DNA of 64,000 bases, from the NCBI RefSeq assembly GCF_036971445.1, contig NC_091482.1, forward strand, positions 5,022,001 through 5,086,000. The letters run 5' to 3'. The position numbers and the translations under genes are program-made. Origin of the DNA: Narcine bancroftii (lineage: Eukaryota). Below are positions 1,061 to 61,949 of this stretch, one piece after another. The notes under the pieces were generated by a model. It had not been told where the DNA came from and ran no database searches. It saw only the letters and a list, made by a program, of their open reading frames with translations. Numbering within the stretch: the stretch's first letter is position 1; each line of letters starts with the position of its first letter.

Positions 1061-1749
1061 AAAAAGTCAGACCCGAAACGAGAGTCGCCTTTTACTTCTT
1101 ACAGATCTGTGTGACCTGCTGAGTTTCTCCAGCACTCTGTGGTATTAGCCCAGTGGACTACAGCCAAGAGTTCAGACTTGGAAGGAACTTACAAAGGTAC
1201 AGGTTGGCAGCAAATTATCTTCTCCATAAAAGATGATGGATCAAGACGATCAGAACGGAAGCACTTACTTCATCTTCCAGACACCCAAAAACTTCAGATG
1301 TTGTAAATCCTAAATAAAAGCAGAAGATGCTGGAAGCATCTAGTGGGTCAGGCATTAGACAGAAACAAAGAACCTCAAGTGGAAAAGCAAATCCTTTCTC
1401 TCCCTACTGATGCTACATGACTTACTTATTGATTCTAGCATTTTCTGTTTTCACTCAGAAGGAGGTGATAAACTTGCATCTAACTTCCAGTGGAAAGTAA
1501 AAGGAAGAATCAAGTGCTGTTTTCACCCATATCATTGTGGAGGCTTTGGGTCAAAAGGTCAGGGCTAGGGTAGACTTTGAATTTATGGTTGTAAAAGTTA
1601 GGATTAGGGTCTGCTTGGAGCTTGTGGTCTGAGGGGGTTAGGGATGTAGAATCCTGTTTAAAAATGTACCCCGAGAAGCACCTGAACAAGCAAAGCCAAA
1701 CACAACTTAAACAGCTATTTTTTTTGTTTGTTTGGTACATAAATAGGGC

Positions 1750-4789: not shown

Positions 4790-7440
4790 AGTGTGGGGGG
4801 AGGGGTGGGAAGAGCATGGGGAGGGGGAAGGAGGGAGGGGAGAAGAGGAGGGAGGGGAGGGGGGAGAAGAGGAGGGAGGGAGGGAGGGGGAGAAGAGGAG
4901 GGAGGGAGGGAGGGGGAGAAGAGGAGGGAGGGAGGGAGGGAGGGGGAGAAGAGGAGGGGAGGGAGGGAGGGGGAGAAGAGGAGGATGGGAGGGGAGGAGA
5001 AGGGGGAGAGAGGGAGGGAGGGGGAGGGGGGAGAAGAGGAGGAGGGAGGAGAGGGGAGAAGAGGAGGGAGGGAGGGGGAGAAGAGGAGGGAGGGAAGGGG
5101 AGAAGAGGAGGAGGGAAGGGGAGAAGAGGAGGGAGGGAGGGGGAGAAGAGGAGGGGAGGGAGGGGGAAAAGAGAGGGAGGGAGGGGGAGAAGAGGAGGGA
5201 GGGAGGGGAGAAGAGGAGGGAGGGAGGGAGGGAGGGAGGGAGACGAGGGAGGGAGGGAGGGAGGGAGAAGAGAGGGAGGGAGGGAGGTGAGGGAGGAGGA
5301 GAAGAGGAGGGAGGGGAGATAAGAGGGAGGGGAGGTGGAGAAGAGGAGGGAGGAAGGGAGGGAGGGGGAGAAGAGGAGGGAGGGAGGGGGAGGAGAAGAG
5401 GAGGGAGGAGGGAGGGAGGAGGGGGAGAAGAGGAGGAGGGAGGGGGAGAAGAGGAGGAGGGAGGGGGAGAAGAGGAGGGAGGGGGGGAGAAGAGGAGGGA
5501 GGGAGGGGGAGAGAGGAGGGAGGGAGGGGGTTGAGAAGAGGAGGGAGGGAGGGGGGAGAAGAGGAGGGAGGGAGGGGGAGAGAGGAGGGAGGGAGGGGGG
5601 AGGAGGAGGGAGGGAGGGGAGAGAGGAGGGAGGGAGGGGGAGAAGAGGAGGGAGGGAGGGGGAGAGAGGAGGGTAGGAGGAGGGGAAGAGGAGGGGGGGG
5701 AGATGGAGGAGGGAGGAGGGGGAGATGGAGGGAGGGAGGGAGGGGGAGATGGAGGGAAGAGGGAGGGGGAGATGGAGGGAGGGAGGGGGAGATTGGAGAG
5801 GAGGGGGAGTGGAGGGAGGGGGGAGATGGAGGGAGGGAGGGGGAGATGGAGGGAGGGAGGGGGAGATGGAGGGAGGGAGGGAGTGAGAGATGGAGGGAGG
5901 AGGGAGGATGGAGGGAGGGATGGAGGAGGGAGAGATGGAGGGAGGAGAGATGGAGGGAGGGAGAGATGGAGGGAGGGAGATGGAGGGAGGGGAGAGATGG
6001 AGGGGGAGATGGAGGGAGGGAGGGAGGGGGAGATGGAGGGAGGGAGGGTAGGGGGAGATGGAGGGAGGGAGGGAGGGGGAGATGGAGGGAGGGAGGGGAG
6101 ATGGAGGGAGGGAGGGAGGGGGAGATGGAGGGAGGAGGGAGGGGGGATGGATGGAGGGGGTGTTGGAGGGGGATGGGAGGGAGTGGAGGGGATGGTGGGA
6201 GGGAGGGAGGGAGGGAGATGGGAGGGGAGGGAGAGGGAGATGAGGTGAGGGAGGGAGGGGGTGATGGAGGGGAGGGAGATGGAGGGGAGGGTGGGAGGGG
6301 TGAGTGGAGGGAGTGGAGGGAGGGGTGGAAGGAGGGAGGGTGGTGGTGGGAGATGGAGGGAGGGTGGGAGGGGGAGTGGAGGAGGGGGGGGAGATGNNNN
6401 NNNNNNNNNNNNNNNNNNNNNNNNNNNNNNNNNNNNNNNNNNNNNNNNNNNNNNNNNNNNNNNNNNNNNNNNNNNNNNNNNNNNNNNNNNNNNNNNNNNN
6501 NNNNNNNNNNNNNNNNNNNNNNNNNNNNNNNNNNNNNNNNNNNNNNNNNNNNNNNNNNNNNNNNNGGAGGAGGGAGGGGGAGATGAGGGTGGGAGGGGGA
6601 GTTGGAGGGAGGGTGGAGGGGGGAGATGGTGGGTGGGAGGGTGGGGGAGTGGAGGGGAGGGAGGGAGGGGGAGATGGAGGGAGGGAGGGGGAGATGGAGG
6701 GGGGAGGGAGGGGAGATNNNNNNNNNNNNNNNNNNNNNNNNNNNNNNNNNNNNNNNNNNNNNNNNNNNNNNNNNNNNNNNNNNNNNNNNNNNNNNNNNNN
6801 NNNNNNNNNNNNNNNNNNNNNNNNNNNNNNNNNNNNNNNNNNNNNNGGGAGTGGAGGGAGGGAGGGTGGGGGAGATGGAGGGAGGAGGGAGGGTGGAGAT
6901 GGAGGGAGGGAGGGAGGGGGGTGATGGAGGGAGGGAGGGAGGGGGAGATGGAGGGGAGGGAGGGGGAGTGGGGGAGGAGGAGGGGGGTTGGGAGGGGGGA
7001 GGGGGAGATGGAGGAGGGAGGGGAGATGGAGTGGAGGGAGGGAGGGGAGATGGAGGGAGGTGGGAGGGGGAGATGGAGGGAGGGAGGGAGGGGGAGATGG
7101 AGGGAGGGGGAGATGGAGGGAGGGGGAGATGGAGGGAGGGAGGGAGGGGGAGATGGAGGGGGAGATGGAGGGAGGGGGAGATGGAGGAGGGAGGGAGGGG
7201 GAGATGGAGGGAGGGGGAGATGGAGGGAGGGGGAGATGGAGAGAGGGGGAGATGAGAGAGAGGGGGAGATGGAGAGAGGGAGGGAGGGGGAGATGGAGGG
7301 AGGGGAGGGAGGGGAGATGGAGGGAGGGAGGGGGAGATGGAGGGAGGGAGGGGGAGATGGAGGGAGGGAGGGGGAGATGGAGGGAGGGAGGGAGGGGGAG
7401 ATGGAGGGAGGGAGGGAGGGAGGGGGAGATGGATGGAGGG
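4790..7440 (+). repeat. G/A-rich low-complexity minisatellite (GGAGGGAGGGAGGGGGAGAAGA grading to GGAGGGAGGGAGGGGGAGAT) with two assembly gaps (6397-6565, 6718-6846)
   Basis: Seen directly. It explains all the long Pro/Ser-rich and Gly/Glu/Arg-rich ORFs here. Confidence 0.95.
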
Positions 7441-11149: not shown

Positions 11150-13110
11150 TGAGACTCAAATCAAAGATCCTGACTGAAGTGTTCATTGATCATTTCTCCC
11201 CACGAATGCTGCCTGACCCTCCGAGTTTCTGTTTCTCTTTTCGTTTGCTCAACATTCCAACGTGTGCCGTCTTGGCTTTTCCAAATACTTATTAACTTTG
11301 TTAAGGCTTTTGTCGCTTCCATTCTTTCAGGCAGTGACCTCCAGCCCTTTCCCACCCACACCTTTATGACTTCTGGGCACACCACGATACCAAATTCCAC
11401 TTCTGTCTCCTCCATCTCTGCCTACTTCCATGAATCTCCACCCCACCCAAGACCCCTTCTGCTTTAAGCCTTCTTCCTCCTGGACACCTTGTCCTGGCAG
11501 AAAATTTCAATTTACCTCTGGATGCGATACCTCACATGCCCTTCATCTCTTCAATGACTTCAGATTTCCTGAACTGCACCACCTCATCCCCATACAGAAG
11601 GCCTTAAAGTGCTTCGCTTCTTTCTTGTCCAGAGACCTGATCAGTCACCCTCTACCACCCTCCTTCACCTAGCAGAACTTGTCCTCATTCTAAAGAACTT
11701 CTCCTTTAATTCGTCTCACTTCCTCCAAATCAAAGGAGTAGCCATGGGTACCCATATGGGTCCCAGCTACACCTACCAGTTTGTGGGCTTTGTGGAGCAA
11801 TCCATACTGCAAGCCTTCACAGGCTGAACCTCTTGACTCTTCCTCCAGTATATTGATGACTACATCAGGGCTGCCTCAAGCACCCACGATAAACTTGTCA
11901 ACTTTATTCACTGTGCAGCCAAACTCATCTGGTCAATCTCTGAAAACACTCCTCTTTTTGGATCTCTGTCTCCATCTCAGAAGATGAGCTTTCCACTGAT
12001 ATATATTACAAACCCACCAACTCCCACAACTACACTTCCTCACACTCTGTCCCCTTCTCTCAATTTTCTGCTCTCATTTTGAGGTCTTCCAGAAATGTTG
12101 CTTCCCCTCCAACACCATCAACTCAGCCCTCATCTCTTCTATTTCACACTCATCTGCCCTGGCCCGCACTGCCTCCCAGATGCAACAAAACCAGAATCCC
12201 CTTTGTCCTCACCTACCACCCCACTAGCATCCACATCCAAAACATTATCCTCCTGAATGTCTAGCACTTACAACAGGATCCCACTACCAGAGACATCTTC
12301 CCCACTCCTCCCTTCCATAGGGACTGCTCCCTCCGTGACTCCCCCGTGCACTCATCCCTCCCCACCAATCGCTCCCCCCCCACCCCCCCGGCACCTTTCC
12401 CTGTGGCCGCAGGAGGTGCAATACCTGCACCCACACCTCCTCCCTCACCACGGTACAGGGCCCCAAGCAGGCCTTTCAAGTGAAGCAACAGTTCACTGTG
12501 TATTCACAGGATTGATTTACTGCATCTGATGCTCCCTTTGTGGCCTTCTCTACATCGGAGTCACAGCGCAGACTGGGAGAACACTTTGCTGAACACCTTC
12601 GCTTCATCCGCACCAGTGACAGAGACTTCGCAGTTGCCAACCATTTCAGTTGTGACACACCCTCATACTCAAATGTCTATCCTTGGCATTATGTACTATC
12701 CCACAAAGGCTACCTGTAAATTGGAGGAACAACACCTGATTTTCCGCCTGGGCACTCTCCAGCCAGATGGCATTAACGTCGACTTCTCTGGTTTCTGCTA
12801 ACTTGCCTTCCTCTCCCCCTTCCATCTCTCCTCTCCCCTTCCCTCTCGATTTAACCAGCCATCCCTCCCCATCTTGCTTGCTGCTGTTCCCCCTTTTTCC
12901 ACCTATTACCTCCTGCCTCCCCCCCCCCCTCCACTTTTTGATTTGGACACCTGGGAACATTTTTCCATTCCTTGTTAAAGGGCTCTAGCCCGAAACGTTG
13001 GTTATGTATTTTTATCTTTGCTATACGAAGGACCCTGCGTGACCTGCAGCAGTTTTGAGTATTTCACTACAATCGCAACATCTTTAGACTTTCCTGTTCA
13101 ACTTCAGATC
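11150..13110 (+). mobile_element. Penelope-like element remnant (RT and GIY-YIG fragments, terminal hammerhead-like motif)
   Basis: LAELVLILKNFSFNSSHFLQIKGVAMGTHMGPSY (PLE RT), a YCI..CGL.YIG GIY-YIG-like fragment, LEEQHLIFRLGTLQPDGINVDF, and AAGGGCTCTAGCCCGAAACGTTGG near 12978-13001. Confidence 0.85.
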
Positions 13111-16340: not shown

Positions 16341-17149
16341 TCCTCTATTACGTCACTTAATAGCAGGTTTGAAGGGACACTTATTAACCATTACATTCAC
16401 TTCACAGCTAAAATAAGCTTAAGGGGCAAATTGCAATGTCTTCTGAAATCTCAACCAGGAGTCTACTCTCATGAAAATAATGTTATGAGTATTGCTTTGT
16501 CCAGATAAAAGTACTGAAACAAAACCCAAGAACAACATACAGTATCTGGCATCCAAGTGGAATGTTAGAGGTCGGACAAGTAAATTTGTTGGGATGCCTG
16601 AAATTGCATGTTGCGTGGATTGGCGAACTCACCACAAAGGGCGCTAATTTCAAACTTTTGTACTTTTAAGATTTATACATACAGCACAGTAACAGGTCCT
16701 TTCGGCCCATGAGCCCATGCTGTCCAATTGCACCCAATTAACCTACTACCCCGCTATGTTTTGAAGGGTGGGAGGAAACCAGAGTCCCTGGGAAAACCCA
16801 CACAGATACTGGGAGAATGTCCTTACAGACAGCGTAGGATTGGAACCCCTGTCCCGATCCCTGGCGCTGTAACAGCTTTACGCTAACCGCTACGCCAAAT
16901 GTGCCGCCCTATTTTACTTGTTTATTTTCCGCAATTTTTTTTGATGGTTGCTCAAGGCTGCTGGTTGCTTGAATTTAGGATAACGGGGGTATTTTATTGT
17001 AGTATGCAGTGACAGTTGTCTCATCTTGTCTCTGGTTGAGATTTCAGAAGACATTGCAATTTGCCCCTTAAGCTTATTTTAGCTGTGAAGTGAATGTAAT
17101 GGTTAATATGTGTCCCTTCAAACCTGCTATTAAGTGACGTAATAGAGGA
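16341..17149. repeat. 118-bp near-perfect inverted repeat (16341-16458 / 17032-17149) in SMG8 intron 3
   Basis: The arms are reverse complements with one mismatch seen. Confidence 0.9.
16678..16910 (-). mobile_element. tRNA-derived SINE nested in a Tc1/mariner-type MITE (~16538-17003)
   Basis: Reverse complement of the SINE consensus (GGCGTAGCGGTTAGCG head). Flanks resemble the MITE at 55624-55850. Confidence 0.65.
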
Positions 17150-26685: not shown

Positions 26686-28162
26686 TGTACTTTCTGTTGG
26701 TCTCCATAACAAAAGAAAGATGTACTTGCCTTGCAGTTAATTCAGTGAAGATTCATAGCATTAACTTTTAGAGATGAGGGGGTTTTTCCCAGGTGAGTTG
26801 GAGCAAAATTGAAGTCGACAAATGAAGCAATTTCCTTGAAACACATCATCGAGGAGGATTTTCAAGGTAGAATCCCCTAGAATCTAGAACTAGACTCAAA
26901 GGAAAGGACTGAATACTTAAGAATCAAGATGAAGGGAAATTCCACTCAGAGAGTTGCAAATACCTCTGAGGGCCCTGGATGCTCAGTTGCTGAACATATC
27001 CACACAGGGATCAATTGTGCAAAACACAAAAGTGGTGGAGAAACTCAGCAGGTCATGCAGTGTCAATAGGTATATAACCAATGTTTCAGATTGCCCTACA
27101 ATCACAATGTCTTCAAACTTCAGAGTCTTCAGGCTTTCTCGTTTACCAAGGGTCAATAGATTGGGTGGATTAAGTGAATCACAACTTTAATCATCCACCC
27201 TGAGGATTGAGATCTTATTTAACGTCAGAGCAAGCATAGGGGCTGTGTCACTATTTACCATCTGTTCCTTATTCACGAGCTTAGGTTGTGTGAAAATTAG
27301 TGGATCACAGTTATTCTGCAAGCAACACTGATCTAACTCAAAAGGGAAAATATATTTTGTTTCTATTTATGATGATAACCTCTGAGCACAATGTTTCTAG
27401 CATATTTTTGGCAAGATAATGTTTTGAATCGAATCGTCTGTTCTCACATGTACAAAAATACAGTGAAAAGCTTTGTTTTGTGTTCTATCCTGGCAGTCAA
27501 CATTCTCAAGTACAGCAGGTAGATCAATAATAAAAGTGCAGAGGATCAGGTAATCAGGACAAGGTGCAGGGAGAAAAAATACAGCTAAAGAGTGCAGGAG
27601 AATCTTCTTTTGCCAATGAGAGATCCTAATAAATTTGCAGAATTGCTGGTACATCTTGTCTAGACTCACAGGTACCAATTACAGAGTGCAAGAACATAAG
27701 AAATAGGAATAGGAGTTGGCCATCTGGCCCGTCGAGCCTGCTCCGCCATTCAATGAGATAATGGCTGATCTGATTATAGGCTCATCTCCATCTACCTGTG
27801 TTTTGCCCATATCCCTTAATTCCTCAACTATGAATAAAATCTATCCCTGTTTTCAGGGACTACCAACAAATGCATACACTCTGTGTCTCAGTTTACAGAG
27901 ACTACCAACACTTCATACACTCTGTGTCCCAGTTTTCCGGGACTTTTTAAATACAACCATCAGTTGGTTTGTACAGATATTCTGCAGTTTACCCATGGAC
28001 CCAGTCTGGAGTATATATTATGAAAGGTTAAAAATGACCAGAATCCAAAAGGTAGCTTACAAAAGGATGGGTTATTGTAGTGTATTTGCAATTAATTTAA
28101 TTCCCCTCTCCTTCAAAGACTTAAACTAAGCCAAGGTGAAAGCTTCCTAATGTATGGCTCAC

Positions 28163-29681
28163 CTGGTTTTGGCAGCAGATGGAATTTATGAACACAATGT
28201 TGGTCTGTTAAGCTTCTCTCTTCACACAACTGGTGCCCATTACTCCAGAACTTGTAGCAATCTTCATGCAGTTGCATGGCATACTTTTGGAAGGCTGGTC
28301 CACGGGCATGCTGACTGTAAACACGCAGGGCTTGGGCCAACTGGTTCTTGTGGACAGTCGTTGTGTAATGGTGAGGCAGGTTAGACTGATAGGCACTGTG
28401 TGCCAGAGGCAAGGCCTTCTGGCAGCGGTTTTCAGAAAACTTATTGTCTGCATCCAAAAATCCTTCAAGTCCTTTTAATTGGATCTGTATCTTAGAGGAC
28501 AGATCTCCTGAAAGAAATCCCAGCTCATCTTCCCTCCAATTTATCATCACGTCATAGAGCTTCGAGGCCACGGAGAGCCAGTTTTTATAGGCAGGAAGCT
28601 CAAAATGCGATGGCTGTGGATTCCTCCCAACACTGTCCTCAAAGCCCTTTTTAGTCAACACCAGCTCCACGTGTTGCCACAGAAACTCCTTCAATGTGCA
28701 GTCCACCAGCTGCCCACTGGAACTGTTGAGGTTGCTTTCCAGTATGAAAGATGGCTGGCGGACGTGCCTCATCAATTGATAACGCCGTGACCCTGAAATC
28801 GGGAGAGATTCATGCTCCCTGATGGCACAGTTCGTTTTCAGTTGACCAATCAACATACTGATGGGGTCTTCCCCTTGCCCAGCTACAACGTAAACAAAAG
28901 CTTGGTTGGCAGGAACAGTAAATAGGCAGTTAATACTCTGGTTCGTCAGTACTCTGCTCTTTCTGAAAATTCTGTAAATCTGATCTTCCAAGGCATGCTG
29001 CAGTCTCCTTTTAGGAGAGTGTTTTTTGGGTTTATCCAGATTGGAAGGGTCTAGGCACTTGGGCTCGACTTTCAGAGCTCCATTCAGCTGGAAAATAAAG
29101 AGGAGCCTCGGAGGGCAGGGTCTGCAATTCAATCGCCATTCCTTCCCCACTGGGCAATCTTTAATCGTGCTCTTCAGATACGGAAGAACCTTTTGCCTGA
29201 GGTTGTCCAGTGCTCGGAAGACGCGGTCGTACGTGATGTCGAAGGAGCAGGTGGGGTGGACCAGGAGGAGGATGTGCGAGACGGAGAAGAGGTAGAGGAG
29301 GTGGATGCAGTGAAGCTTCTCCTCCCCTTTCCAGAACTCGTGGGCCTCGGCGTGGGAAACGTCATCCGCCAGGTCCCTGCAGGCCTGCAGCAGCTGGTAG
29401 TTGTCGCAGACGGCGGTCAGGATCAGGTAGAGGACCTTGCTGTCCTGGTTGTAGTAGCACTGCAGCAGGTTGTTGCCCTGGTGATGCTCGTTCATGAGGG
29501 ACGGGTACAAGGGGAAGACCGGCTTGTCGCACAGAGTGTTGACGATGGCGTATTTCTCCGCGCTCAGGTCCATCGTCTTGCCGAAGATGCCGACCACACA
29601 CATCTCTTCATCCTTCCAGGCCACGTCCTCGACGTCTGAAGCCAAAGCCGCCCTCAGGAGCCTGGCTGCCACCGCCGCCAT
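28163..29681 (-). CDS. SMG8: SMG8 (NMD factor, SMG1 complex subunit) coding exon 1
   Basis: MAAVAARLL...MCVVGIFGK...CRPCPPRLLFIFQLNG...HSPKRRLQHALEDQIYRIFRKSRVLTNQS...FSENRCQKALPLAHSAYQSNLPHHY...KFHLLPKPG. AAGATGGCG start context, G|GTGAG donor. The four exons join in frame to 915 aa. Confidence 0.97.
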
Positions 29682-29900
29682 CTTGCTTACCCGCCGGCCC
29701 TCAATCACTTCCGGGGGAGGAACTACGGCGCCCAAGGACAGTTCCGCACGTTCATGTCCCACCGTTCATTTCCTCCGGGGGGGCAACAAAACCGCAAGGG
29801 CTTGCAACCCATCCCCCCCCCCAACACACCTTACAAACGGGAATCCAACACTTCCTGTCGGTTGCAAATGGGATGCTCGGCCTCCCCCCAACTCACAAAT
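29670..29900 (-). promoter_or_regulatory. SMG8 CpG promoter with YY1, ETS/GABP and ZNF143-like motifs
   Basis: CAAGATGGCGGC over the start codon, CCGGAAGTG near 29706-29713, ACTACGGCGCCCA near 29722-29734. Confidence 0.6.
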
Positions 29901-30889: not shown

Positions 30890-32260
30890 AAGACCATAAG
30901 GCATTGGAGCAGAAATTGGTTATTCTGCCCCACCATTCAATTATGAGTTGATCCATTCTCCCCATAATCTTTGATGCCCTGGCTCATCAAGAACCCATCA
31001 ATTTAAGCCTTAAATACACCCAATGAGCTGGTTTCCACAAGCATCTGTATCAACAAATTCCACAGATTTCCCACCCTCTAGCTGAAGAAATTCCTCTGCA
31101 TCTCTTTTCTAAGTGAACACCCTTCAATCCTGAAATTGTCCTCTCATCCTAGACTCTCCCATCTTGGGAATAAACTTTCAACATTCAAAATGTTTCAATG
31201 AGATCCCCCCCTCATTCTCCTAAATTCCAACGAGTACAGACCAAGAGCTATCAAACACTCCTTGTATGACAACCTTTTCATCCTTGTGAACCTCCTCTGA
31301 ACCATCTCCATTGTCAGCACATCTTTTCTGGAATAAGGAGCCCAAAACTGCTCACAATACTGTGAGGTCTCACTAGTGCCTTATAAAGCCTCAACATCAC
31401 ATCCCTGCTTATACTCTATTCCTCCGAAATGAATGCCATCTGGTTGGAGAGTGCTCAGATGGAAAATAAGGTGTTGTTCCTTCAAGCTGCAAGTGGTCTG
31501 GGTGGGATAGTACACAAGGCCATAGACAGACATATGAGCATGGAAGTGTGACTCAGAATTGAAATGGCTGGCTACTGGGAGGTCTCTGTTACTGTAGCAG
31601 AGGGAACTGAGGTATTCAGCAAAACATTCTCCCAATTTACGATTGGTCTCTCCAATGTAAAGGAGAAACGGATGCAGTAAATCCGTCCTGCAATTTCAGA
31701 AGTGAATATAAAAGCAAGGTTGTAATGTTGGGGCTTTAAAGCATTGGTCAGACCACATTTGGATACTGAGAACAGCTTCAGGATCCTTACCTATGGAAGG
31801 ATGTGCTGGCATTGGAGTGATCCAGAGGAGGTTTACAAGATTGATCTCAGGGATGAGATGGTTAATATAAGAGGATGTTCACTGGCTCTGAGCCAAATTC
31901 CCTGGAATTTAGAAAGGAGTGCAGATTTAATTGAAATGACTTAATGTTGAAAGAGCAAGATAGAGTGGATGTGGAGACATTTTCAGTAGTTGAGTCTAGG
32001 ACCAGAGGGCATAATTTCAGAATTAAAAAAGATATCATTTTTGAACAAAGATAAGAAGAAATTTCTTCATCGGAGGGTGGTGAATCTGTAGAATTTGTTG
32101 CTACAGGTGGTTGCGGAAACCAAGTCATTGGTCACATTTAAAGTAGAAGTTGATAGATTCTTGATTAGTTATGGTGTCAAAGGTTATGGGGAGCCACAAC
32201 TCTATTAGCAGAGCAGCCCCATGGATCAAATAGAAAATACTGCTCCTACATCTGATAATC
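30890..32260. mobile_element. Cluster of CR1-like fragments (both orientations) with a Penelope-like GIY-YIG fragment (31435-31700, minus)
   Basis: DLPVASHFNS...KEQHLIFHLSTLQPDGI (PLE), plus MVRPHL and CR1 3' motifs. Confidence 0.6.
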
Positions 32261-37844: not shown

Positions 37845-38410
37845 ATGAGAGATGAGAGGAGAATTGGGCCATTCAGCCTGCTCTGCCATTCGAATGAAGG
37901 CTGGTTATTCTTCCTTTTAACCCCTTTTTTCTGCCTTTTCCCCATTACCTTTTACCATTCAAGAACCCATGAATCTCTGGTTGAAATTTACCCAACGACT
38001 TGGCCTCCACAGCTGCCCGTGGCAACAAACTCCACAGATTCACCACTTTCTGGCTGAAGAAATTTCTCCTCATCTCTGCTCTAAAGGGATGTCCTTTTAT
38101 TCTGAGGCTATGCTCTCTGGTCATAGGTAACATCTTCTCCACATCCACTCTATCCAGCCCTTTCAATATTTGGTATGTTTCAATGAGATCCCCCTCATCC
38201 TTCAATACTCCAGCAAGTATAGGCCCAGTGTCAAATATTTTGCACAAGTTAACTCCCTAATCTCATCCTTAATAATGAACTCTAGAATCTTGCCTAGCAC
38301 TGAAGTCATGCAAACCAGCTTAGTTTATTTTTTTTTTGGCTTTCTCCATTCTTAAAAGTGCAGTGCACTTGCAATTTTGTAGTCCTTCAGAACCATTCCC
38401 AACTCTAGTG
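37845..38410 (-). mobile_element. CR1-like LINE 3' fragment
   Basis: GDLIETYQILKGLDRVDVEKM...RRNFFSQKVVNLWSLLP is a CR1 ORF2 C-terminus. Confidence 0.75.
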
Positions 38411-42261: not shown

Positions 42262-42475
42262 CAGCCATTCTCAATGGGGGTCCCACAGACCCCCTGGAGG
42301 CTACAGCACATTGAAGTAAATGTGTTTTTTTCTCTTCACCTCATGTACATAAATATTTTTTATGTTTTTATATAGTCAGTAGGAGAGATGTTACAGTTTC
42401 ACAGGGAAGGGGGCCCATAAACTGAGCAGAGTCCTGGGAGGGTGGGGATAGCCAAAACAAGGTTGAGAATGGCTG
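42262..42475. mobile_element. hAT-type MITE
   Basis: TIRs CAGCCATTCTCAA / TTGAGAATGGCTG. Confidence 0.55.
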
Positions 42476-42874
42476 GCTTAGGGAGATAAAATTAAAAAAT
42501 GTAAAAGAACTGCAAGTCCCAAGAGGGCTTGACAAGATGTGTTGGGAAGTTTTCTCTGGTGGGAGAAGCTCAAACAAGGGAAATTTAACTCCAAGAGGGC
42601 CGTTCATTTTAAACAAAGGTAGAAATTGCTTCTTGCAAACTGTGGTTAATCTCTTAAATTTTCTGCCCCATAGGTGGTGGAAGCAAAAATCATTTTTTAA
42701 TTTTATCTCCCTAAGCCAGCCATTCTCAACCTTGTTTTGGCTATCCCCACCCTCCCAGGACTCTGCTCAGTTGATGGGCCCCCTTCCCTGTGAAGCTGTA
42801 ACATCTCTCCTACTGACTATATAAAAACATAAAAAATATTTATGTACATGAGGTGAAGAGAAAAAACACATTTA
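42317..42874. repeat. ~185-bp near-perfect inverted repeat (42317-42501 / 42691-42874)
   Basis: The arms are reverse complements with only a few differences, and give near-identical ORF translations on opposite strands (FFNFISLSQPFSTLFWLSPPSQDSAQ). Confidence 0.9.
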
Positions 42875-44100
42875 GAGTGCAGGAAGATAAATATTTGATT
42901 GATCTAGGAAGAGGGATCAGGAGAAGTGACACTGATGAGATGAAGCCAGCAAGGATCAGCCATGATCTTATTAACTGACAGGGCAGGTTAAAGAAGCCAT
43001 TGCTCCCATTTTCTTGTGTTCTTGTGCAGACGCATCACAAAATCTCCCTTAACTGATATGGGCTGAATGGCAAGTGGGCTACAGTGTATTTGCTGGAAGA
43101 GTGGAAAATTAAGCAAGTTTCCCTCAATAATTAAATAAAATGACACACTTGCCATCCACCCTTCAGTTGGAGAGTATGTGTGGATATTAGGGATAAAGCA
43201 GACTATTTCCACAGCAAAGGTTCACTAGAAGTTTCAGATGTAGGTACTTATTGAAACACATCTAAAAAAGTACTTCTCTTGGTCCCCAAATATATCAGAG
43301 AAAAAGGAAATCTTATCAGTGTGAAACAACTGCCCATTGCTATCCAGAACACACTGCTATAACACAGATGATTGAAACAATTGGATCAAGTTATTTCCTC
43401 ACCTTCAAAGCAATTTTTTCTTGTACGAAATATTCATTGAATATGGCCAATACTAGCCAGGCTGGCATTTATTGTCAATGAGAAGATGGCAACAAATTGC
43501 CTTCTTCATTCCAATTAACAGAAGTACTCAAATGGTCCTTTTACAAAAGGTTTTGGGGATACGACTCAATGATAATGAAAGAATCTTAATGGTAAAAGTT
43601 GCAAGTTCAACGAGTGGTATTGAAGAATCATCAACGAGTGCTTCAGAGCATTATGCAAGAGATTCAAAAGACAAGCAGAGAACCAAAAGTGGGACAAGTG
43701 ATTTAGGGAAAAGTATGAGAACCAACGAAAATTGGCTGTTTTGTCTTTTATATGCTAATCTTTAAACACTATGGAAAGTACACAAAAGCAAGTGCAAAGG
43801 CACCCGATTTCTTCCTTGTACATGGCAGCAATATTTGGGGAGTTGGGAAGAGAAGGCACCCGCCATCAAAATACACATTAATTACAGTGAAAGGTAACTT
43901 CCAGGATAGTGATGGTGCAAGACTTGGCGACAGCAATGACACCTAGCGACATTTAGACTCCATCTGTTAGAGAAGATTTCTGCATTCATTTACTACGCAA
44001 ATCTGAGCAGTTTTTTTTTGCCATATGTAGGTTATCAATATAAATGGATCTTGCAATTAATGCAAGGATTAAATAAGAATCACAAAACACAAGCTATTAC

Positions 44101-44163
44101 CTTTCTATATTTACTTTCTTTAGACGTCGCTGGAGATGCAGCAAGGGTCGATGTGGAGTGATC
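44101..44163 (-). CDS. PRR11: PRR11 coding exon 7
   Basis: ITPHRPLLHLQRRLKKVNIE(R) versus human ITPGKSQMDLRKLLRKVDVER. CTTTTTCAG/GTAAT sites, phase 2/2. Confidence 0.88.
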
Positions 44164-44221
44164 CTGAAAAAGGAATACAAGATTTGCATCTACAATTTAA
44201 AAAAAAAAAAAATAAATATAC

Positions 44222-44496
44222 AAGAGACTTGGTCTCGCTGTATTGACCAGGCTGTGCTGCAACATCTATTCTTGGACATGATCCAACGACTGATAGGCAC
44301 GGGGGCTTTGAATGACCTGGGCTGAATCACCTCTCTTTGCACAACCTGGTGACTCCCAATTCCTCTACAGACACCATATTGATGCTCAACGTAGTGAGGA
44401 CACCTGCTTAACACAGGCCGCAGTAGCCCAGAACTCCTGGTCTCAAGCGATCCAACAGCTTCCACCAAGTAGCCGGATTATAAGCGTGCGCCCGGC
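44222..44496 (-). pseudogene. 7SL (SRP) RNA-derived retrocopy
   Basis: Minus strand reads GCCGGGCGC...GGATCGCTTGAGACCAGGAGTTCTGGGCT...GCATCAATATGGTG...CACCAGGTTG...GCCCAGGTC...AGCCTGGTCAATACAGCGAGACC..GTCTCTT, collinear with vertebrate 7SL. TSD CTACAATT (44190-44197/44497-44504). Confidence 0.9.
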
Positions 44497-46147: not shown

Positions 46148-46154
46148 CTGTGAA

Positions 46155-47370
46155 TCAAGTAAAAACACAATGCTGGAGAAACTCAGCAGGTCAAACAATG
46201 TACATTTTAGAGCAAAGATAAAGATACATAACTCAAGGCCTGAGCTCTTTATCAAATCAAATTTATTGTCATTTGGTCAAACAAGTACAAACCAACTATG
46301 TTCTCTGGTCCTTAGTGCAAACTATGCACTCAACCAGACATTACACACATACAGACAAACAATACATATGCAGGACAAGTACTTATATATACACAAATAA
46401 ATAAATAAAATTTTGCTAATCAACAGCTAGTGTGAGGAGTTCCTTTTGACTTTCAGCATTTTCACTGTCCATGGGAAGCTGTTCCTTCTCAGCTTGGTGG
46501 CTCTGATACTCCTGCATTTCTTTCCCAATGGGAGCAGCCGAAAGATGCTGTGTGTAGGGTGGAAGGGATCCTCAATGATTTTGCGTGCCCTCTTCAGATC
46601 ATTTCAAGGTGAGGGGAAGGTACAAGCAAAATGTAGACAAAGGCCTGAACAAAATGAGGGGGGAGGGAAAGACAGGGGGAAAGGCACAGGCAGGAGGGAA
46701 TAGGTGGATAAGTGAGGGAGGGCACACCAGCAAGAAGAGGGAGGAGGCATGGATGGACATATCTGCATGGGAATGGGGGATAGAATTGAAATGGTTGGCT
46801 ACTGGGAGATCCCTGTCACTGATGCGGACACAGCAAAGATCTGCCTCCAGTCTCCAATTTAAAGATGACCACACCAGGAGCACAGAATGCAGGACATCAC
46901 TCCTACTATAATGTGTTGAATGCAGAGGCTGGTGAGGTGGTAGGTGAGGACAAGGGAAATCTGTTTTTTGTTCTGTGTGAGGACAGAGCAGATGAATGGG
47001 AAATGGAGGAGATGCAGGCAAGTGCTAAATTGGTGGTGGAGAGAAGCCATGGCTTTGGAATAAAGAGGACATTGCGAATGATCTGGACTGGAAGATGATC
47101 TTGGGAACAGTCACAATGGAGACAGAAGAATTGAGAGAAACGAATCAAGTCCTTGCAAGGGACTGGGTGTGAAAAAGTGTTGTCAACAGGGTTGTGAGAC
47201 TTGTTAGGTTTGTAAAAAAAGACTGTAGAAAGCTTGTCTCCCAAGATGGAGACAAAGATCAAGAAAGGGGAGAATGTCACCAAAGATGGACCAAGTGAAT
47301 TTGAGGTTGGGGTGAAAGCTAGCAACAAAGTGAATGAGGTTGACAAGTTCATCATAGGTCCACTAACAAT
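46155..47370 (-). mobile_element. Penelope-like element fragments interrupted by a LINE fragment
   Basis: ACACAATGCTGGAGAAACTCAGCAGGTCA terminal motif, DRDLPVANHFNS, and LSTVFFYKPNKSH RT-thumb-like remnant. Confidence 0.7.
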
Positions 47371-47914
47371 CAATATTTAGAAATGATTTATTTTTGAAGA
47401 CCATGCCCCAGATGAATAAAGTTACCAATTAAGCTTCCAAAAATCAAATATTCATTAGATTGACAGGAGGTTTTGCACAACATACCAGCATGAACTTGGT
47501 CCATGGTAGAATATGTCCAACAAGATGAAGTGAAATCAAAATATGAACCTACTTTTTAAAACAAAAAATCTACATTTGTTTGTTAAATCTAGCTGTAGTG
47601 GGGAAAAAAATCTTTCTCCAAAATTCCCTGGTGGTTTTGAAATATGTACCAAATTCTGACTGCCCTCTCTTGTTTTATTTGATAATTCTGCTGCACAGAA
47701 GCAAAAATTTAGAAATGCATGGCCAACCTGTCTCATTTTTCCCTTTTTGTAATTCCCTGTTGATGGGGAAGGTTGTGGCTTCATGATCACATTCTTAGGT
47801 TTGATCCAACTCTAAGAATAGATCTGAACCTGGATGGATACTAGGCAGAACATATTCTTTTAATTGTAGAATGATACTTTAATCAAAAGATTGGAACTCA
47901 TCCAGGCTGCTCAT

Positions 47915-56869: not shown

Positions 56870-57275
56870 CATTAGGCAAGCTTCGCTGAGCTTCTTCGTT
56901 CTGTCTGCATCAGGAACACGGATCTCCCAGTCGCCAACAATGGACTGACAGGTCTGTCCATGGCCTCATGTACTGTCAAAGCAAGACTACCCAAAAATTG
57001 GATGAGCAACAACTAATTTTCCATCTGGGAACTCTCCAACCAGATGGCATTAACATCAACTTCTCCAGTTTCTGCTTGCCTACTCACCGTTCTCCCTCTC
57101 TTCCCCATCCCTGTGTCTTCTTTCCTCTAGCTCTCCATTCACAAACCCTTTGGTTTGAGCCCCTGCTCATACCTTGATGAATGGCTTAAGCCTAAAACAT
57201 TGATTATGTATCTTTATCTTTGCTATACGAAATACTGTTTGACATGCTGAGTTTCACCAACATTGTGTTTTCACT
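56870..57275 (+). mobile_element. Penelope-like element 3' fragment with degenerate hammerhead-like motif
   Basis: KLDEQQLIFHLGTLQPDGININF. ACCTTGATGAATGGCTTAAGCCTAAAACATTG at 57171-57202. Confidence 0.75.
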
Positions 57276-57482
57276 TTCCTCATCTTTGTTTAGCTACGTA
57301 ACTCTCCCCAGGGCAGAGGCTTCTGTATAGAAATAAACTCAATGGCTAGTAACCATCATGGAGAATGTTACCAATGTACACTGTTTGACCTGCTGAGTTT
57401 CTCCAGCATAGTGGTGTTACTTCAGGTAATCCAGAGTTATTTTGAAAGGTGAGCACTGGTTAATAGCCGAAGAGTGACTTAC

Positions 57483-58380: not shown

Positions 58381-58975
58381 CAGGTGTCAATTCCCCTGTT
58401 TCTGGCGATCGCCGTCCACCCACGGGAGCTCCCGACGCCCCGGCCGCAGACTCGCGCCCGCCAGAGCTCCCAAATAACCACAGGCAATCACCACAGTAAA
58501 AAAGTGGTATGTATGCAATTTTACCCTAAAAATTGGGCTATTAAATTTGAGGTTTAAAAAAGATAGACATGAATACCATTCCATACATGCATTTCTTAAC
58601 ATTTTGAAACAAAATACGCACGGAAGAGTTGAAAAAAAAGGGAATTTCGTGACTTGCTCATGGCAATAAATCCCGGTTTTTGTTTGCAGTGTCTTCCCCC
58701 CACCCCCAACCCTAACCCTCAGACATCTGAAGTTTATGGTTCTGAGCAAGTTCGGCCAGTCCTGGTGAAGGATAAGGACAGAAGGACGATGTTAATACCT
58801 CCACAACAGTCAGCATCCCTCATGCTGAGGTACAACAGGCCAGAGGGGGAATACCTGCCGAGCGGACAATCAATAACTGCAGACACCATTAGGAACCACA
58901 TCGTCCATAAACACTCGACGAGCTCAAGTGAAGAGAGAGGGGGGCAAAAAAAATCTCTCCCTCCCGCCAACTCAC

Positions 58976-59005
58976 CTCAGATAAACTGAACGACGACGCC
59001 AGTTT
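58976..59005 (-). other. PRR11: Probable non-coding exon 1 of PRR11 (5' end approximate)
   Basis: Strong GAG|GTGAGT donor at 58976/58975, just downstream of the CCAAT cluster. Confidence 0.6.
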
Positions 59006-59387
59006 AAAATTAAACACGCGCATTCACCGGCCAATCGGAGCCGAGACCTTCATGAGCCGATTGACCAATCAGAAGAGCCTCGCTGCGATTCCACAAATGG
59101 GAGAACCACCGGGCTGGCCGCCTCGCCGTTTCGAGCCAATCCACGACGGCTTTTCTTCTCCCACTCCAACCGCGAGCGTCCAATTGAGAAGGCGGCGTAC
59201 TTGCCCCTGTTCGTCCAATCGCCAAGCCTGTTGCATTCCTCAGCGAGCCAATCAAGATCGGAATTTGCTTCCCCCCACCAACCGGAAAACCGAACCTGCC
59301 TCCGGACGGTCGAATCAGAAGGCACGATACATCTCGGCGGAAAAGGGCCCCTTTATCGGTTCGCCTTCGGAATGTAAACTATTCAAT
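59000..59387. promoter_or_regulatory. Bidirectional PRR11/SKA2 promoter with six CCAAT (NF-Y) boxes and a CHR-like TTTAAA
   Basis: CCAAT at 59031, 59065, 59136, 59180, 59215 and 59248. TTTAAA at 59003-59008. CpG-rich, between head-to-head genes. Confidence 0.85.
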
Positions 59388-59420
59388 ATGGAGACCGCGG
59401 TCAACAAGCTGGCAGGGATG
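59388..59420 (+). CDS. SKA2: SKA2 (spindle and kinetochore associated complex subunit 2) coding exon 1
   Basis: METAVNKLAGM|GTGAGC versus human MEAEVDKLELM. 11-codon first exon, head-to-head with PRR11 as in mammals. Confidence 0.85.
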
Positions 59421-59779
59421 GTGAGCGAGATTTTTTTTAATTCCAAAAAAAAATTATTTCATGCCAGAAACGAGTTTTAGGCAGGCGAAACGCGTTTTGG
59501 CGTGGAGAGTGAGACCTCGCGGTCGTAGGAAAAAAACTTAAAAAAAAATCCGCGCGCGCGCAGCGGGTGTATTTTATCGGCGAAAAACTTTAATTTGTTT
59601 GGAAGCTCTGTCCTGATTTGCATCCGGGTAATCGGGAGGGGGGGGGGTGCAAAAAATGGCGGGATTGCCAGCTCTGACGGGAGAATCTTTTCCCCACGCG
59701 GGGATGGCTTGGGGGAGAGTCAGTTTGTCGGGGAGGTTGCTGTAATAAAATAACAGGGATGCTGTGGTGAACGTGAGGG

Positions 59780-60301
59780 AAGGAAGGCCGCGGCATTCCG
59801 GCGTCGTCGCGCCTGTTTTCATTCGTCTTCAACGCCCCTCCCCCCTCCTCCTCCTCCTGCGCCCCGGGCGCGCTCGAGCCCGGCGCCGCTTGACAGTTGG
59901 GATGACGTCGTGACGTGTGCGTGCGCGCTCGCGCCTTTCACCGCGCCCCTCCGCCGGCGCTGTCGCTCGCTGGACGGCCGGCAGCTGCTGCGGGGCGGGC
60001 GCTCAGGGCGAATTCTTGGTCGGCGTTCTTCCTTCCTGTTGGAAAACCAACGCTGTCTCTGTGTGCACGAGTAACCGCTCCTGGTGCCAAATTCCCTCCC
60101 CAACTGGACAGGGAAGCTGAGGTGCGCGCCCCCGACGGGATAGGACATTATTGTAGTGGCTGTGTGCTGTCACCGCATGTTTGCAGCATGTTTCAATGAA
60201 AGACTTTTTTTCATTGCACTAGTCCTTGCGAATCATACCAAAAAGTACTTCATGACCTTAAAAATGTTGATTTAGCAAGGGGCCTGTCTGTTGGAAATAT
60301 G
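59780..60301 (+). promoter_or_regulatory. Second CpG island with tandem CRE-like sites and a candidate alternative first exon ending ATG|GTAAGT
   Basis: TGACGTCGTGACGT at 59903-59916, GC boxes, consensus donor at 60302. Confidence 0.5.
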
Positions 60302-60366
60302 GTAAGTAAAAACACGATGCTGGAGAAACTCAGCAGGTCAAACAGTGGACTTTATAGAGCAAAGAT

Positions 60367-61067
60367 AAAGATGCTTAACCAACGTTTCGGGCTTGAGCCC
60401 TTCATCAAGGTATAAAGATGCTTAACCAATGTTTTGGGCTTGAGCCTTTCATCAAGGTATAAAGATGCTTAACCAATGTTTCGGGCTTGAGCCCTTCATC
60501 AAGGTATAAAGATCCATTACCAATGTTTCGGGCTTGAGCCCTTCATCAAGGTATAAAGATGCTTAACCAATGTTTTGGGCTTGAGCCTTTCATCAAGGTA
60601 TAAAGATGCTTAACCAATGTTTCAGGCTTGAGCCCTTCATCAAGGTATAAAGATCCATTACCAATGTTTCGGGCTTGAGCCCTTCATCAAGGTATAAAGA
60701 TGCATTTCCAATGTTTCGGGCTTGAGCCCTTCATCAAGGTATAAAGATGCATTACCAATGTTTCGGGCTTGAGCCCTTCATCAAGGTATAAAGATGCATT
60801 TCCAATGTTTTAGGCTTGAGCCCTTCATCAAGGTATAAAGATGCTTAACCAATGTTTTGGACTTGAGCTTTTCATCAAGATATAAAGATGCTTAACCAAT
60901 GTTTTGGACTTGAGCCTTTCATCAAGGTATAAAGATGCTTAACCAATGTTTTGGGCTTGAGCCCTTCATCAAGGTATAAAGATTCATTACCAATGTTTCG
61001 GGCTTGAGCCCTTCAAGGTATAAAGATCCATTATCAATGTTTCGGGCTTGAGCCCTTCATCAAGGTA
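60367..61067 (-). repeat. 15 x 47-bp tandem array of Penelope-derived minimal hammerhead-like motifs
   Basis: Unit on + is AAAGATGCTTAACCAAYGTTTCGGGCTTGAGCCCTTCATCAAGGTAT; on - it reads ATACC-TTGATGA-A-GGGC-TCAA-GCCC-GAAA-CRTT-GGT. It is preceded by the PLE terminal motif at 60308-60366. Confidence 0.9.
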
Positions 61068-61949
61068 AGATTTCTCCAGCATTTTTAAAATTTCAACCAG
61101 ACTTTCATGCTTTACTATTGAAAATGAGAAGTCTTGGCTTGCCCATTTTAGCTTTGAATAAATTAAATATTCTTGGTTTATTGTGCTCTTCAATTTTAAG
61201 GAAACAAGATTACCTTCAAACCTTTGGACGGAACTGTTCCTGCCATGTAAGGGAGCGGCTTGAATTTTCATAATCAGTTTTAGACTAATTATTTTAGCCC
61301 AAATTATTTAAAATCCTTGCTCCAGGTAAAAGTGTCCAGCTGTCAAAAATCTTTTATTTGTGAATTACTTTGAAAATAAGCTTCATACGGATTGTTCTAC
61401 AGCTGGTGTTTAATTTTAAATTTTAGGGGTTATTTTGGAAATTGAATGTCAGGCCTTGGGTTCAGTCTTTAAGAAACACTGAATCTGAGCAATGATTCAT
61501 AACTTAATGTGCTACATACTCTTAACCTTAAAAAAAAATGGTTCTGTGTGGACTGCCTTGATTGGCTGTGTATAGTTGAGTAATTGAGGTGTTGGAGAAA
61601 TCCTTTACATGGGTGTGGATGTTTCTGCTTTCTGTACTTGTCTTTGACTTGGATGTTGTTAAGCAATATTTTTCTGGATAACTGATAAGTTCTTGAAAAT
61701 TGTTTTGAGGTAATGGTAAACAAACCTATGACCATCTGTAAAGAAAGCTAACTTTATTTTTTGCTAATTTGTGGGGAAACAAATACATTTTCTAAAATGA
61801 AAGAGGTTTCATATTGGTGGGGTGTCACATTCTTCTGTGTTATTTTTGGAGCATGGATTTCTATGAGTAATATTTCAGTTTGACATAATTGAGCTATAAC
61901 TGTTGATTTTGAAGTGCTTGTATCCTAACTTTGTAAAACAGATATATCA

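What the first reader, a model, noticed from the sequence alone, without database searches (positions are those of the whole stretch)
60308..61086. Tandem array of 15 hammerhead-ribozyme-like units in SKA2 intron 1 (retrozyme/satellite-like)
Seen: 15 head-to-tail units of 47 bp (unit 14 has a 3-nt deletion; units 2-4 recur as 5-7). On the minus strand each reads (U)ACC-UUGAUGA-A-GGGC[UCAA]GCCC-GAAA-C(G/A)UU-GGU(A). That gives a short stem I, a CUGANGA-like core with C3>U, a 4-bp stem II hairpin, GAAA, almost no stem III, and an NUH site. The array follows the ACACGATGCTGGAGAAACTCAGCAGGTCA terminus and is closed by an inverted TTTCTCCAGCAT. Established: Penelope-like elements carry minimal type I hammerheads that cleave as dimers via a palindromic ACGU, and hammerhead-bearing tandem repeats occur in newts and schistosomes. 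Inference: only the ribozyme module was amplified. Adjacent copies could form double hammerheads in cis and cut an antisense transcript into 47-nt monomers about 1.4 kb upstream of the PRR11 start. Caveats: only unit 1 keeps ACGU (the others have ACAU), and only units 1, 3, 4, 7, 8, 9 and 15 keep the core, stem II and GAAA together, so it may be an inactive slippage product.
Basis: partly seen in the sequence, partly recalled or inferred. Interest (0 to 1): 0.8.

Follow-up and report, generated by a model that had tools for sequence, protein, structure and literature searches.

The report
Decayed ribozyme minisatellite from Penelope retrotransposon
In an electric-ray genome, the tiny self-cutting RNA motif at the end of a Penelope-type jumping gene was copied fifteen times in a row next to a cell-cycle promoter; the array is real and has the shortest unit we could find described, but it grew as ordinary repeat DNA and is probably no longer able to cut.

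Summary
The array is real: 15 units of 47 bp at 60365-61067. Each unit is the minimal type I hammerhead motif of a Penelope-like element (PLE): the same motif sits in single copy, in sense, just behind decayed RT/GIY-YIG frames elsewhere in the window. The host is an electric ray or close relative (PRR11 exons 94-100% identical to Narcine bancroftii in 9 of 11 matches). The array grew in place at DNA level: units share derived alleles, a three-unit block is duplicated, and all stem II changes are one-sided. Cleavage is unlikely: no unit has a Watson-Crick 3-8 core pair (all readable units U3.G8), 6 of 15 lost G12, 14 of 15 lost the ACGU palindrome needed for the dimer helix, and the ribozyme strand is antisense to the putative SKA2 intron and upstream of the PRR11 start. 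Tandem hammerhead arrays derived from PLE ends are described in vertebrates (units 51-972 bp; 8 of 9 tested dimers inactive). New here are only the 47-bp unit, the U3.G8 core, and a side effect: 13 CCAAT and 14 TATAAA words 1.1-1.8 kb from a CCAAT-rich bidirectional promoter. Activity and transcription were not testable.

The parts
60365..61067 (-). Tandem array, 15 units of 47 bp (unit 14: 44 bp); each unit is a minimal type I hammerhead motif (about 36 nt) plus an 11-nt linker; 13 distinct unit sequences
60378..60411 (-). Unit 1 motif, the only one with core, stem II, GAAA and ACGU; predicted cut between 60381 and 60380 (GUU triplet); U3.G8 core; continuous with the element's 3' end, so probably the founder copy
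   Evidence: centroid fold is stem I plus stem II; cut site inferred from hammerhead numbering
60303..60364 (-). Single-copy 3' end of the PLE pseudo-LTR, downstream of the ribozyme in RNA sense
   Evidence: 77-98% identical to 10 other stretches in the window; alignment with copies behind RT/GIY-YIG frames
61071..61082 (+). 12-bp inverted copy of 60317-60328; either the inverted 5'-truncated piece typical of PLE insertions or the remnant of an older copy that served as target
   Evidence: PLE inverted pieces described in PMC8557442
60301..60306 (+). 6-bp word repeated at 61064-61069; candidate target-site duplication or junction microhomology, not decided
11588..13055 (+). Copy A: decayed, frameshifted PLE with RT then C-terminal GIY-YIG (11588-12798), followed in sense by a single copy of the motif (12967-13015; ACGU kept, position 8 is A, position 6 changed) and the element's end
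   Evidence: tblastn with RVT_1+GIY-YIG proteins, E down to 7e-49; blastn 81% over 89 bp to unit 1 and its flank
56882..57279 (+). Copy B: GIY-YIG C-terminal remnant (56882-57075) followed in sense by a single decayed motif (57169-57217, U3.G8) and the element's end; antisense in a PRR11 intron
46157..47376 (-). Copy C: RT and endonuclease fragments (47376-46746) and, about 490 bp further, a motif remnant lacking GAAA (46255-46218, U3-A8) and the element's end; sense to PRR11; the two pieces need not be one insertion
58794..58901 (-). PRR11 first coding exon (context)
   Evidence: 94% over 36 aa to the named reference P0271
59031..59252 (+). Six CCAAT boxes between PRR11 and the SKA2-like exon: the bidirectional promoter (context)
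   Evidence: CpG o/e 1.2 at 59001-60000; NF-Y control in human in PMC5372550
59388..59420 (+). Putative SKA2 exon 1 (ATG, 11 codons, GT donor); the array would lie in intron 1, ribozyme strand antisense
   Evidence: identity recalled and by gene order, not confirmed

Best explanation
A 5'-truncated Penelope-like retrotransposon inserted about 0.9 kb into the putative SKA2 intron 1, antisense to SKA2, leaving only its last ~110 bases: the minimal hammerhead motif and the pseudo-LTR end (shown by homology). A local duplication then copied 47 bp between two short A-rich look-alike words that bracket the motif, with 2 bp of exact microhomology (junction shown; slippage or repair inferred). Further slippage or unequal exchange expanded it stepwise to 15 units, once as a three-unit block (shown by shared alleles). 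Mutations, several of them CpG decay, accumulated before and during the expansion and were copied along (shown). The result is a PLE-derived minisatellite whose units still look like hammerheads but which most likely neither cleaves at a useful rate nor is transcribed on the ribozyme strand (inferred, not assayed).
For: Origin: single copies of the motif lie in sense 3' of RT/GIY-YIG remnants at 3 other places; of the 10 longer hits of the window's endonuclease piece that I scanned, 6 carry GIY-YIG and 3 of those also RVT_1, at E up to 0.01. DNA-level growth: 29 non-CpG minor-allele occurrences fall into 10 classes, 6 of them shared, against a mean of 24.8 classes if 15 copies had been made at once (0 of 20,000 simulations as low); the best three-unit block match (1 difference) has permutation p 0.003. 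No sign of ribozyme selection: all 9 changed stem II pairs (of 56 in 14 units) are one-sided, none compensatory; 7 of 10 non-CpG alleles hit the ribozyme part, 3 the linker, as site numbers predict (p 0.49); G12, the general base (PMC6155905), is lost in 6 of 15 units. Helix III: two-strand double-hammerhead energy is -16.9 kcal/mol for unit 1 with itself, -11.1 for 1+3, -7.8 for 3+3, -6.3 to -11.0 for other pairs tried (8 pairs); in the array, stem II halves pair with neighbours instead (own stem II probability 0.00-0.21 in 14 units). Literature: PLE min-HHRs are inactive as monomers and weak as dimers (PMC4209133); an anole PLE hammerhead cleaves only with the PLE protein and needs the 3-8 pair (PMC11167929); 8 of 9 Xenopus tandem dimers did not cleave and local tandem growth from a pLTR is the proposed origin (bioRxiv 10.64898/2026.07.22.740005).
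Against: Ten non-CpG core positions carry no substitution in any unit; by hand from those counts the chance is about 0.07, although the A/T-rich linker columns 1-8 are just as invariant. Seven of 15 units, including neighbours 3-4 and 7-8-9, keep core, stem II and GAAA, and 3 units (4, 7, 9) have a fourth stem I pair that unit 1 lacks. CpG enrichment is not significant by allele count (3 of 13, p 0.09). U3 is shared by all 4 readable loci and G8 by 2 of them, so U3.G8 may be a family trait of once-active elements rather than decay. Nearest-neighbour energies ignore core contacts and protein help; even unit 1 with itself lies 9.5 kcal/mol above its minimum fold. No expression data were seen.
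Confidence: 0.8

Rival explanations
1. The array is a live, ultra-minimal retrozyme: a minus-strand transcript folds into double hammerheads (perhaps with PLE protein as chaperone) and is cut into 47-nt units or at least once at unit 1, ending antisense transcription before it reaches the SKA2/PRR11 promoter.
For: Seven of 15 units keep core, stem II and GAAA; monomers fold stem I and II; dimer and trimer min-HHRs show low activity (PMC4209133); one of nine frog dimers was very active; a natural core with U3 and G8 plus an insertion is cited among halophile variants (PMC7151607).
Against: 0 units pass a strict core, 1 of 15 has the palindrome; helix III probability at most 0.001; one-sided stem II changes and G12 loss; PRR11 coding starts 1.46 kb beyond the array, so its transcripts should not include it (start site inferred from the CCAAT cluster).
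Confidence: 0.07
2. The array matters as DNA on the plus strand, not as RNA: the duplication junction creates a TATAAA word and the CpG change that destroyed the palindrome creates a CCAAT word, so the array is a chain of CCAAT/TATA pairs that binds NF-Y and tunes, or starts transcripts near, the NF-Y-type SKA2/PRR11 promoter.
For: CCAAT in 13 of 15 units and TATAAA at 14 of 14 junctions, all on plus; only 0.2% of circularised 47-mers from the window carry both on one strand; six CCAAT boxes in the native promoter 1.1-1.4 kb from the array; NF-Y drives the human pair (PMC5372550, passages).
Against: Noticed after the fact, so the 0.2% is not a test; 11% of 47-mers have CCAAT alone; the same CpG decay is seen in dispersed copies B and E; flanks of the array's CCAAT words differ from those of the native boxes and fit the recalled NF-Y consensus less well; the array lies outside the CpG island (o/e 0.26); PLEs are heterochromatin targets (recalled).
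Confidence: 0.06
3. The multimer was made in one retrotransposition event, by rolling-circle reverse transcription of a 47-nt circle or by telomerase-like reiteration by the PLE RT.
For: Unit length matches one ribozyme-to-ribozyme interval; such a circle route is proposed for PLEs and retrozymes (PMC4209133; PMC7229834).
Against: A one-time origin predicts private mutations; shared alleles reject it; the block duplication and the fixed place of the array inside one element with a single 3' end point to growth in place; a 47-nt circle would itself need a prior tandem.
Confidence: 0.04
4. Assembly artefact inflating one or a few units.
For: The window has 2 N gaps in another repeat; PLE structures trouble assemblies (PMC8557442); two unit pairs are identical.
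Against: 13 of 15 units are distinct, with nested shared changes and CpG-type differences, which mis-assembly does not make.
Confidence: 0.03

Closest known systems
Minimal type I hammerheads (min-HHR) in pseudo-LTRs of Penelope-like elements (Cervera and de la Pena 2014, PMC4209133; read parts 1-2 of 4, 2 of 3 supplements searched)
   Same: Short helix I, extra nucleotide between 9 and 10.1, G10.1-C11.1 pair, no helix III, palindromic 15.2/16.2 in the intact copies, position in the PLE terminal repeat, mostly solitary truncated copies.
   Different: Core is U3.G8 (two dispersed copies U3-A8, the variant reported for schistosome Cercyon elements); helix II is 4 bp, not 7-8; here the motif alone is arrayed 15 times at 47-bp period.
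Non-LTR retrozymes of vertebrates as pLTR derivatives (Li, Clavereau, Pollet 2026, bioRxiv 10.64898/2026.07.22.740005; read parts 1-3 of 5, supplements closed)
   Same: Tandem repeats carrying type I hammerheads, derived from PLE ends by local amplification; found in a chondrichthyan; most tested dimers inactive.
   Different: Unit of 47 bp is below their range of 51-972 bp; 15 units is above the 7 that three quarters of families reach; still attached to the parent's 3' end; would probably miss a canonical-core descriptor. Their tables might hold similar arrays; not seen.
Newt satellite 2, Schistosoma Sm-alpha, coral and axolotl retrozymes (PMC7229834, passages)
   Same: Head-to-tail type I hammerheads with weak helix III that work as dimers.
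   Different: Those have 220-350 nt units, canonical cores with loop 1-loop 2 contacts, and are expressed as circular RNA; none of that is seen or testable here.
Transposon-derived minisatellites (general class, recalled; satellite birth from PLE parts is discussed)
   Same: Stepwise local growth, shared variants, higher-order block.
   Different: The amplified piece happens to be a ribozyme motif.

Membership tests
PLE minimal hammerhead (min-HHR) | Located in the terminal repeat of a PLE, in sense to RT + GIY-YIG ORF | tested here: met
   Same motif 3' of RT/GIY-YIG remnants at copies A, B, C; RVT_1 and GIY-YIG on the homologues
PLE minimal hammerhead (min-HHR) | Helix I, helix II with G10.1-C11.1, extra nucleotide after A9, GAAA, UH, no helix III | tested here: met
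   5 of 15 units pass the descriptor, 7 of 15 keep core, stem II and GAAA
PLE minimal hammerhead (min-HHR) | Watson-Crick 3-8 core pair (C3-G8 or U3-A8) | tested here: not met
   0 strict hits in the window; 14 of 14 readable units are U3.G8
PLE minimal hammerhead (min-HHR) | Palindromic 15.2-16.2 for dimer helix III | tested here: not met
   Met in unit 1 and copy A only; 14 of 15 units are ACAU
PLE minimal hammerhead (min-HHR) | Self-cleavage in vitro | not testable with these tools
   Needs an assay
Rfam hammerhead families | Covariance-model match at gathering score | tested here: not met
   minimal PLE motifs may escape these models anyway (inference)
Non-LTR retrozyme | Tandem repeat whose units carry a type I hammerhead motif | tested here: met
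Non-LTR retrozyme | [quoted passage not shown] | tested here: inconclusive
   Units 3-4 pass only if U3.G8 and a non-palindromic 15.2/16.2 are accepted; none pass a strict core; their rnabob descriptor was not run
Non-LTR retrozyme | Expressed, self-processed monomers and circular RNA | not testable with these tools
   No RNA data
Non-LTR retrozyme | Dispersed family of the same unit across the genome | not testable with these tools
   One array in the 64-kb window; no eukaryotic genome collection available
Locally expanded minisatellite | Single locus, shared variants among units, block duplication | tested here: met

The most novel reading that the evidence does not exclude
Electric-ray PLEs use a hammerhead with a U3.G8 wobble core and U17 that cleaves with help from the PLE protein, and this array is the smallest hammerhead concatemer yet seen, a retrozyme caught at birth that cuts antisense RNA heading for the SKA2/PRR11 promoter; or, on the other strand, a ribozyme relic that was turned by one CpG change and one junction into a 13-fold CCAAT/TATA cluster acting on that NF-Y-type promoter.
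Probability: 0.1. Interest if true: 0.72.

Novelty: new member of a known kind. Interest (0 to 1): 0.3.

Why it matters
As it most likely stands, it is a clean, small example of the proposed first step from a PLE end to a tandem hammerhead repeat: parent end, founder unit, duplication junction and the order of mutations can all be read at one locus. It also warns that descriptor-based counts of 'active' retrozymes can include arrays that expanded after decay. If the U3.G8 core proved to be the working form across the ray's PLE family, it would widen the accepted hammerhead core; the array offers a ready natural series (one intact founder, six units differing mainly by loss of the palindrome, six without G12) to test the dimer model.

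Tried and rejected
Rfam: no hammerhead family at gathering score or at E up to 10 around the array. Pfam on 7 frameshifted PLE fragments: 0 of 7 matched; the eighth query, SMG8, matched. Word-index protein search with the endonuclease piece: 0 of 7 candidates passed; the HMMER library search did find relatives (313 at E 0.001); the ESM Atlas gave GIY-YIG only as a lead (31% of one cluster). Names and sources of the unnamed PLE-like hits could not be looked up, so the PLE clade (Neptune or Poseidon) is not assigned. Three of the 10 hits scanned were host proteins with a PLE piece fused in, and one had no family. SKA2: no match in PDB or Pfam (0 relevant of 40 stretches). CpG enrichment test not significant (p 0.09). 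DNA hairpins at the founder unit are no stronger than shuffles (z -0.27 and -1.00), so I do not claim that the stem II palindrome drove the duplication. A 20-of-22 match of the right flank to 37968-37989 had no PLE end beside it and was dropped. The bacterial promoter scan is not relevant to a vertebrate and was not used. A shifted register (second C as C3, inserted U) leaves a weaker stem I and was set aside by inspection. Literature: 'hammerhead ribozyme' + C3U + G8A gave 0 papers; the looser search listed no paper with 'U3-G8' among 15 shown of 342; Narcine + Penelope + genome gave 0; hammerhead ribozyme + minisatellite + tandem repeat + Penelope gave only the 2026 preprint; two elasmobranch searches were swamped by hammerhead sharks. 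So I found no report of this array or of a 47-bp unit, but the preprint's supplementary tables (closed) and one supplement of PMC4209133 (not searched) could hold one. Genome-wide copies, orthologous empty sites and expression stayed unchecked: no eukaryotic genome or RNA collection was available.

Full report
Observation. The array is in the sequence as described. Tandem Repeats Finder reports 60365-61067, period 47, 15.0 copies, 92% matches. Splitting it gives fourteen units of 47 bp and one of 44 bp, 13 distinct sequences among 15, with units 2=5 and 4=7 identical and 3 versus 6 differing at one CpG position. On the minus strand a unit reads as stem I arm, seven-base core, one extra A, a 4-bp stem II opened by G10.1-C11.1, GAAA, two bases, UH, and the other stem I arm. 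Seven of 15 units (1, 3, 4, 7, 8, 9, 15) keep core, stem II and GAAA; one of 15 (unit 1) keeps ACGU. A descriptor that also asks for three contiguous stem I pairs and allows U3.G8 finds five hits in 64 kb, all in the array, against 0.007 per 55 kb of shuffled sequence (150 shuffles). With a strict core it finds none, and Rfam has no hammerhead match.

Host and gene context. SMG8 is at 28113-29762 on minus. A PRR11 exon has Narcine bancroftii as best hit, followed by sharks, and that reference maps across the window on minus in 11 matches, 9 of them at 94-100% identity and two at 74-76%, with the first coding exon at 58901-58794. The window is therefore from an electric ray or close kin. Six CCAAT boxes lie at 59031-59248 in a CpG island, followed on plus by an 11-codon exon with a GT donor at 59388-59420, which I take for SKA2 exon 1 from recall and from the head-to-head order in human (PMC5372550, passages); no tool confirmed it. 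The ribozyme strand is thus antisense to the putative SKA2 pre-mRNA, and the array lies 1.46 kb upstream of the PRR11 start codon, beyond the promoter. Neither of the two divergent transcripts should carry the motif in sense (inference).

What the unit is. The unit and its left flank recur as single copies in the window. [quoted passage not shown] The same order, endonuclease remnant, motif, end, is seen at 56882-57279, and less tightly at 47376-46157. So the array sits in a 5'-truncated PLE copy: 60303-60364 is the element's 3' end and the motif is the min-HHR that Cervera and de la Pena found in PLE terminal repeats (PMC4209133, parts 1-2 of 4 read). The 12-bp inverted piece at 61071-61082 fits the inverted truncated copies usual in PLE insertions; a 6-bp direct repeat at 60301 and 61064 may instead mark a target-site duplication into an older remnant. 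I cannot decide between them.

How it grew. The unit begins and ends in similar A-rich words that share two exact bases at the junction. If all copies had been made at once and then mutated alone, the 29 non-CpG minor-allele occurrences would fall into about 25 classes; they fall into 10, six of them shared, and none of 20,000 simulations went so low. Two sub-lineages of seven and eight units are interleaved, and a three-unit block is repeated with one difference (permutation p 0.003). This is stepwise growth at DNA level with mutations copied along, which excludes a one-time rolling-circle or reiterative insertion and makes an assembly artefact unlikely.

Is it active? All 14 readable cores are U3.G8. 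The 3-8 pair is Watson-Crick in nearly all natural hammerheads and covaries to U3-A8 (PMC3088659, section 8; PMC4209133); breaking it abolished activity in an anole PLE ribozyme, which cleaved only with the PLE protein (PMC11167929, section 3 part 2). I found no paper that measures U3.G8 alone; a halophile variant with U3 and G8 plus an insertion is mentioned (PMC7151607), and a related insertion variant needed very high Mg2+ (PMC3088659, section 9). G12 is lost in 6 of 15 units and the core is deleted in one more. Of 56 stem II pairs in 14 units, 9 are changed, all on one side. Non-CpG changes do not avoid the ribozyme part (7 in 32 sites versus 3 in 11 linker sites, p 0.49). The dimer helix needs ACGU on both partners: the two-strand double-hammerhead energy falls from -16.9 kcal/mol (unit 1 with itself) to -11.1 (1+3) and -7.8 (3+3), and in the folded array helix III between neighbours has probability at most 0.001 while stem II halves pair with neighbours. 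Against this reading: ten non-CpG core positions are untouched (about 0.07 by chance, hand estimate, though the A/T-rich linker start is equally invariant); three units have a fourth stem I pair; CpG enrichment is only p 0.09; folding energies ignore tertiary contacts and protein help; and U3 is common to all four readable loci, with G8 in two and A8 in two, so the wobble may be a family trait.

Comparison. Tandem type I hammerhead repeats are known from newts, schistosomes, corals and axolotl, with 220-350 nt units, canonical cores and circular RNAs (PMC7229834, passages). A 2026 preprint (10.64898/2026.07.22.740005, parts 1-3 of 5 read) surveys 31 vertebrates, finds such repeats also in one chondrichthyan, gives unit lengths of 51-972 bp, derives them from PLE terminal repeats by local amplification, and finds 8 of 9 tested dimers inactive. 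This array looks like the short end of that class and shows its proposed origin directly. It is not filed as an active retrozyme, because the core pair and the palindrome were tested and not met, and expression could not be tested. Searches for a prior report of this array or unit size found none, but the preprint's tables were closed.

A side effect. On plus, the junction makes TATAAA 14 times and the CpG change that removed the palindrome makes CCAAT in 13 units, 1.1-1.8 kb from a promoter that NF-Y drives in human. Only 0.2% of window 47-mers carry both words on one strand, but this was noticed after the fact and the same CpG change occurs in dispersed copies, so it is kept as a rival at low probability.

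Verdict. Observation confirmed; interpretation partly supported. A PLE min-HHR turned into a local minisatellite, probably inert (0.8). New member of a known kind; interest 0.3. The most novel reading not excluded, a working U3.G8 ultra-minimal concatemer or an exapted CCAAT/TATA cluster, has probability about 0.1.

Noticed in passing
window 60411-61019 and 60426-60990 (+): TATAAA at 14 junctions and CCAAT in 13 units, created by the duplication junction and by a CpG change.
   Followed up: partly
window 12967-13015 (+) and 46218-46255 (-): Two dispersed copies have A at core position 8 (U3-A8, the Cercyon-type covariation), whereas the array and copy B have G.
   Followed up: partly
window 46150-46255 (-): The only copy lying in sense to a host gene (PRR11) has lost GAAA, and its end abuts the acceptor of a PRR11 exon, apparently supplying the pyrimidine tract. 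One case only.
   Followed up: partly
window 11588-12798 (+), 31399-31665 (-), 46746-47376 (-), 56882-57075 (+): Four decayed PLE coding remnants in 64 kb, and at least 10 short copies of the element's end: the family is very abundant here.
   Followed up: partly
window 1007-1134: A small palindromic element made of two inverted PLE ends around half a hammerhead motif, MITE-like in look.
   Followed up: no
window 44222-44496 (-): SRP (7SL) RNA-like copy, 115 bits, diverged, probably a pseudogene, in a PRR11 intron about 40 bp from an exon match at 44100-44186.
   Followed up: no
window 4825-7440: Long purine-rich GGGA-type repeat with two N gaps.
   Followed up: no
window 59500-60100: The CpG island extends about 0.7 kb beyond the putative SKA2 exon 1, with a second GC-rich peak that could be an alternative promoter or exon.
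   Followed up: no
window 16400-16460 and 17030-17090; 42368-42824: A local inverted duplication of about 60 bp, and near-identical overlapping frames on both strands at 42368-42824 suggesting an inverted repeat element.
   Followed up: no
P0008, P0031, P0130: Three database proteins with host domains (NYAP, RecQ5, GPCR) contain a PLE endonuclease piece, probably gene-model read-through into PLE copies.
   Followed up: no
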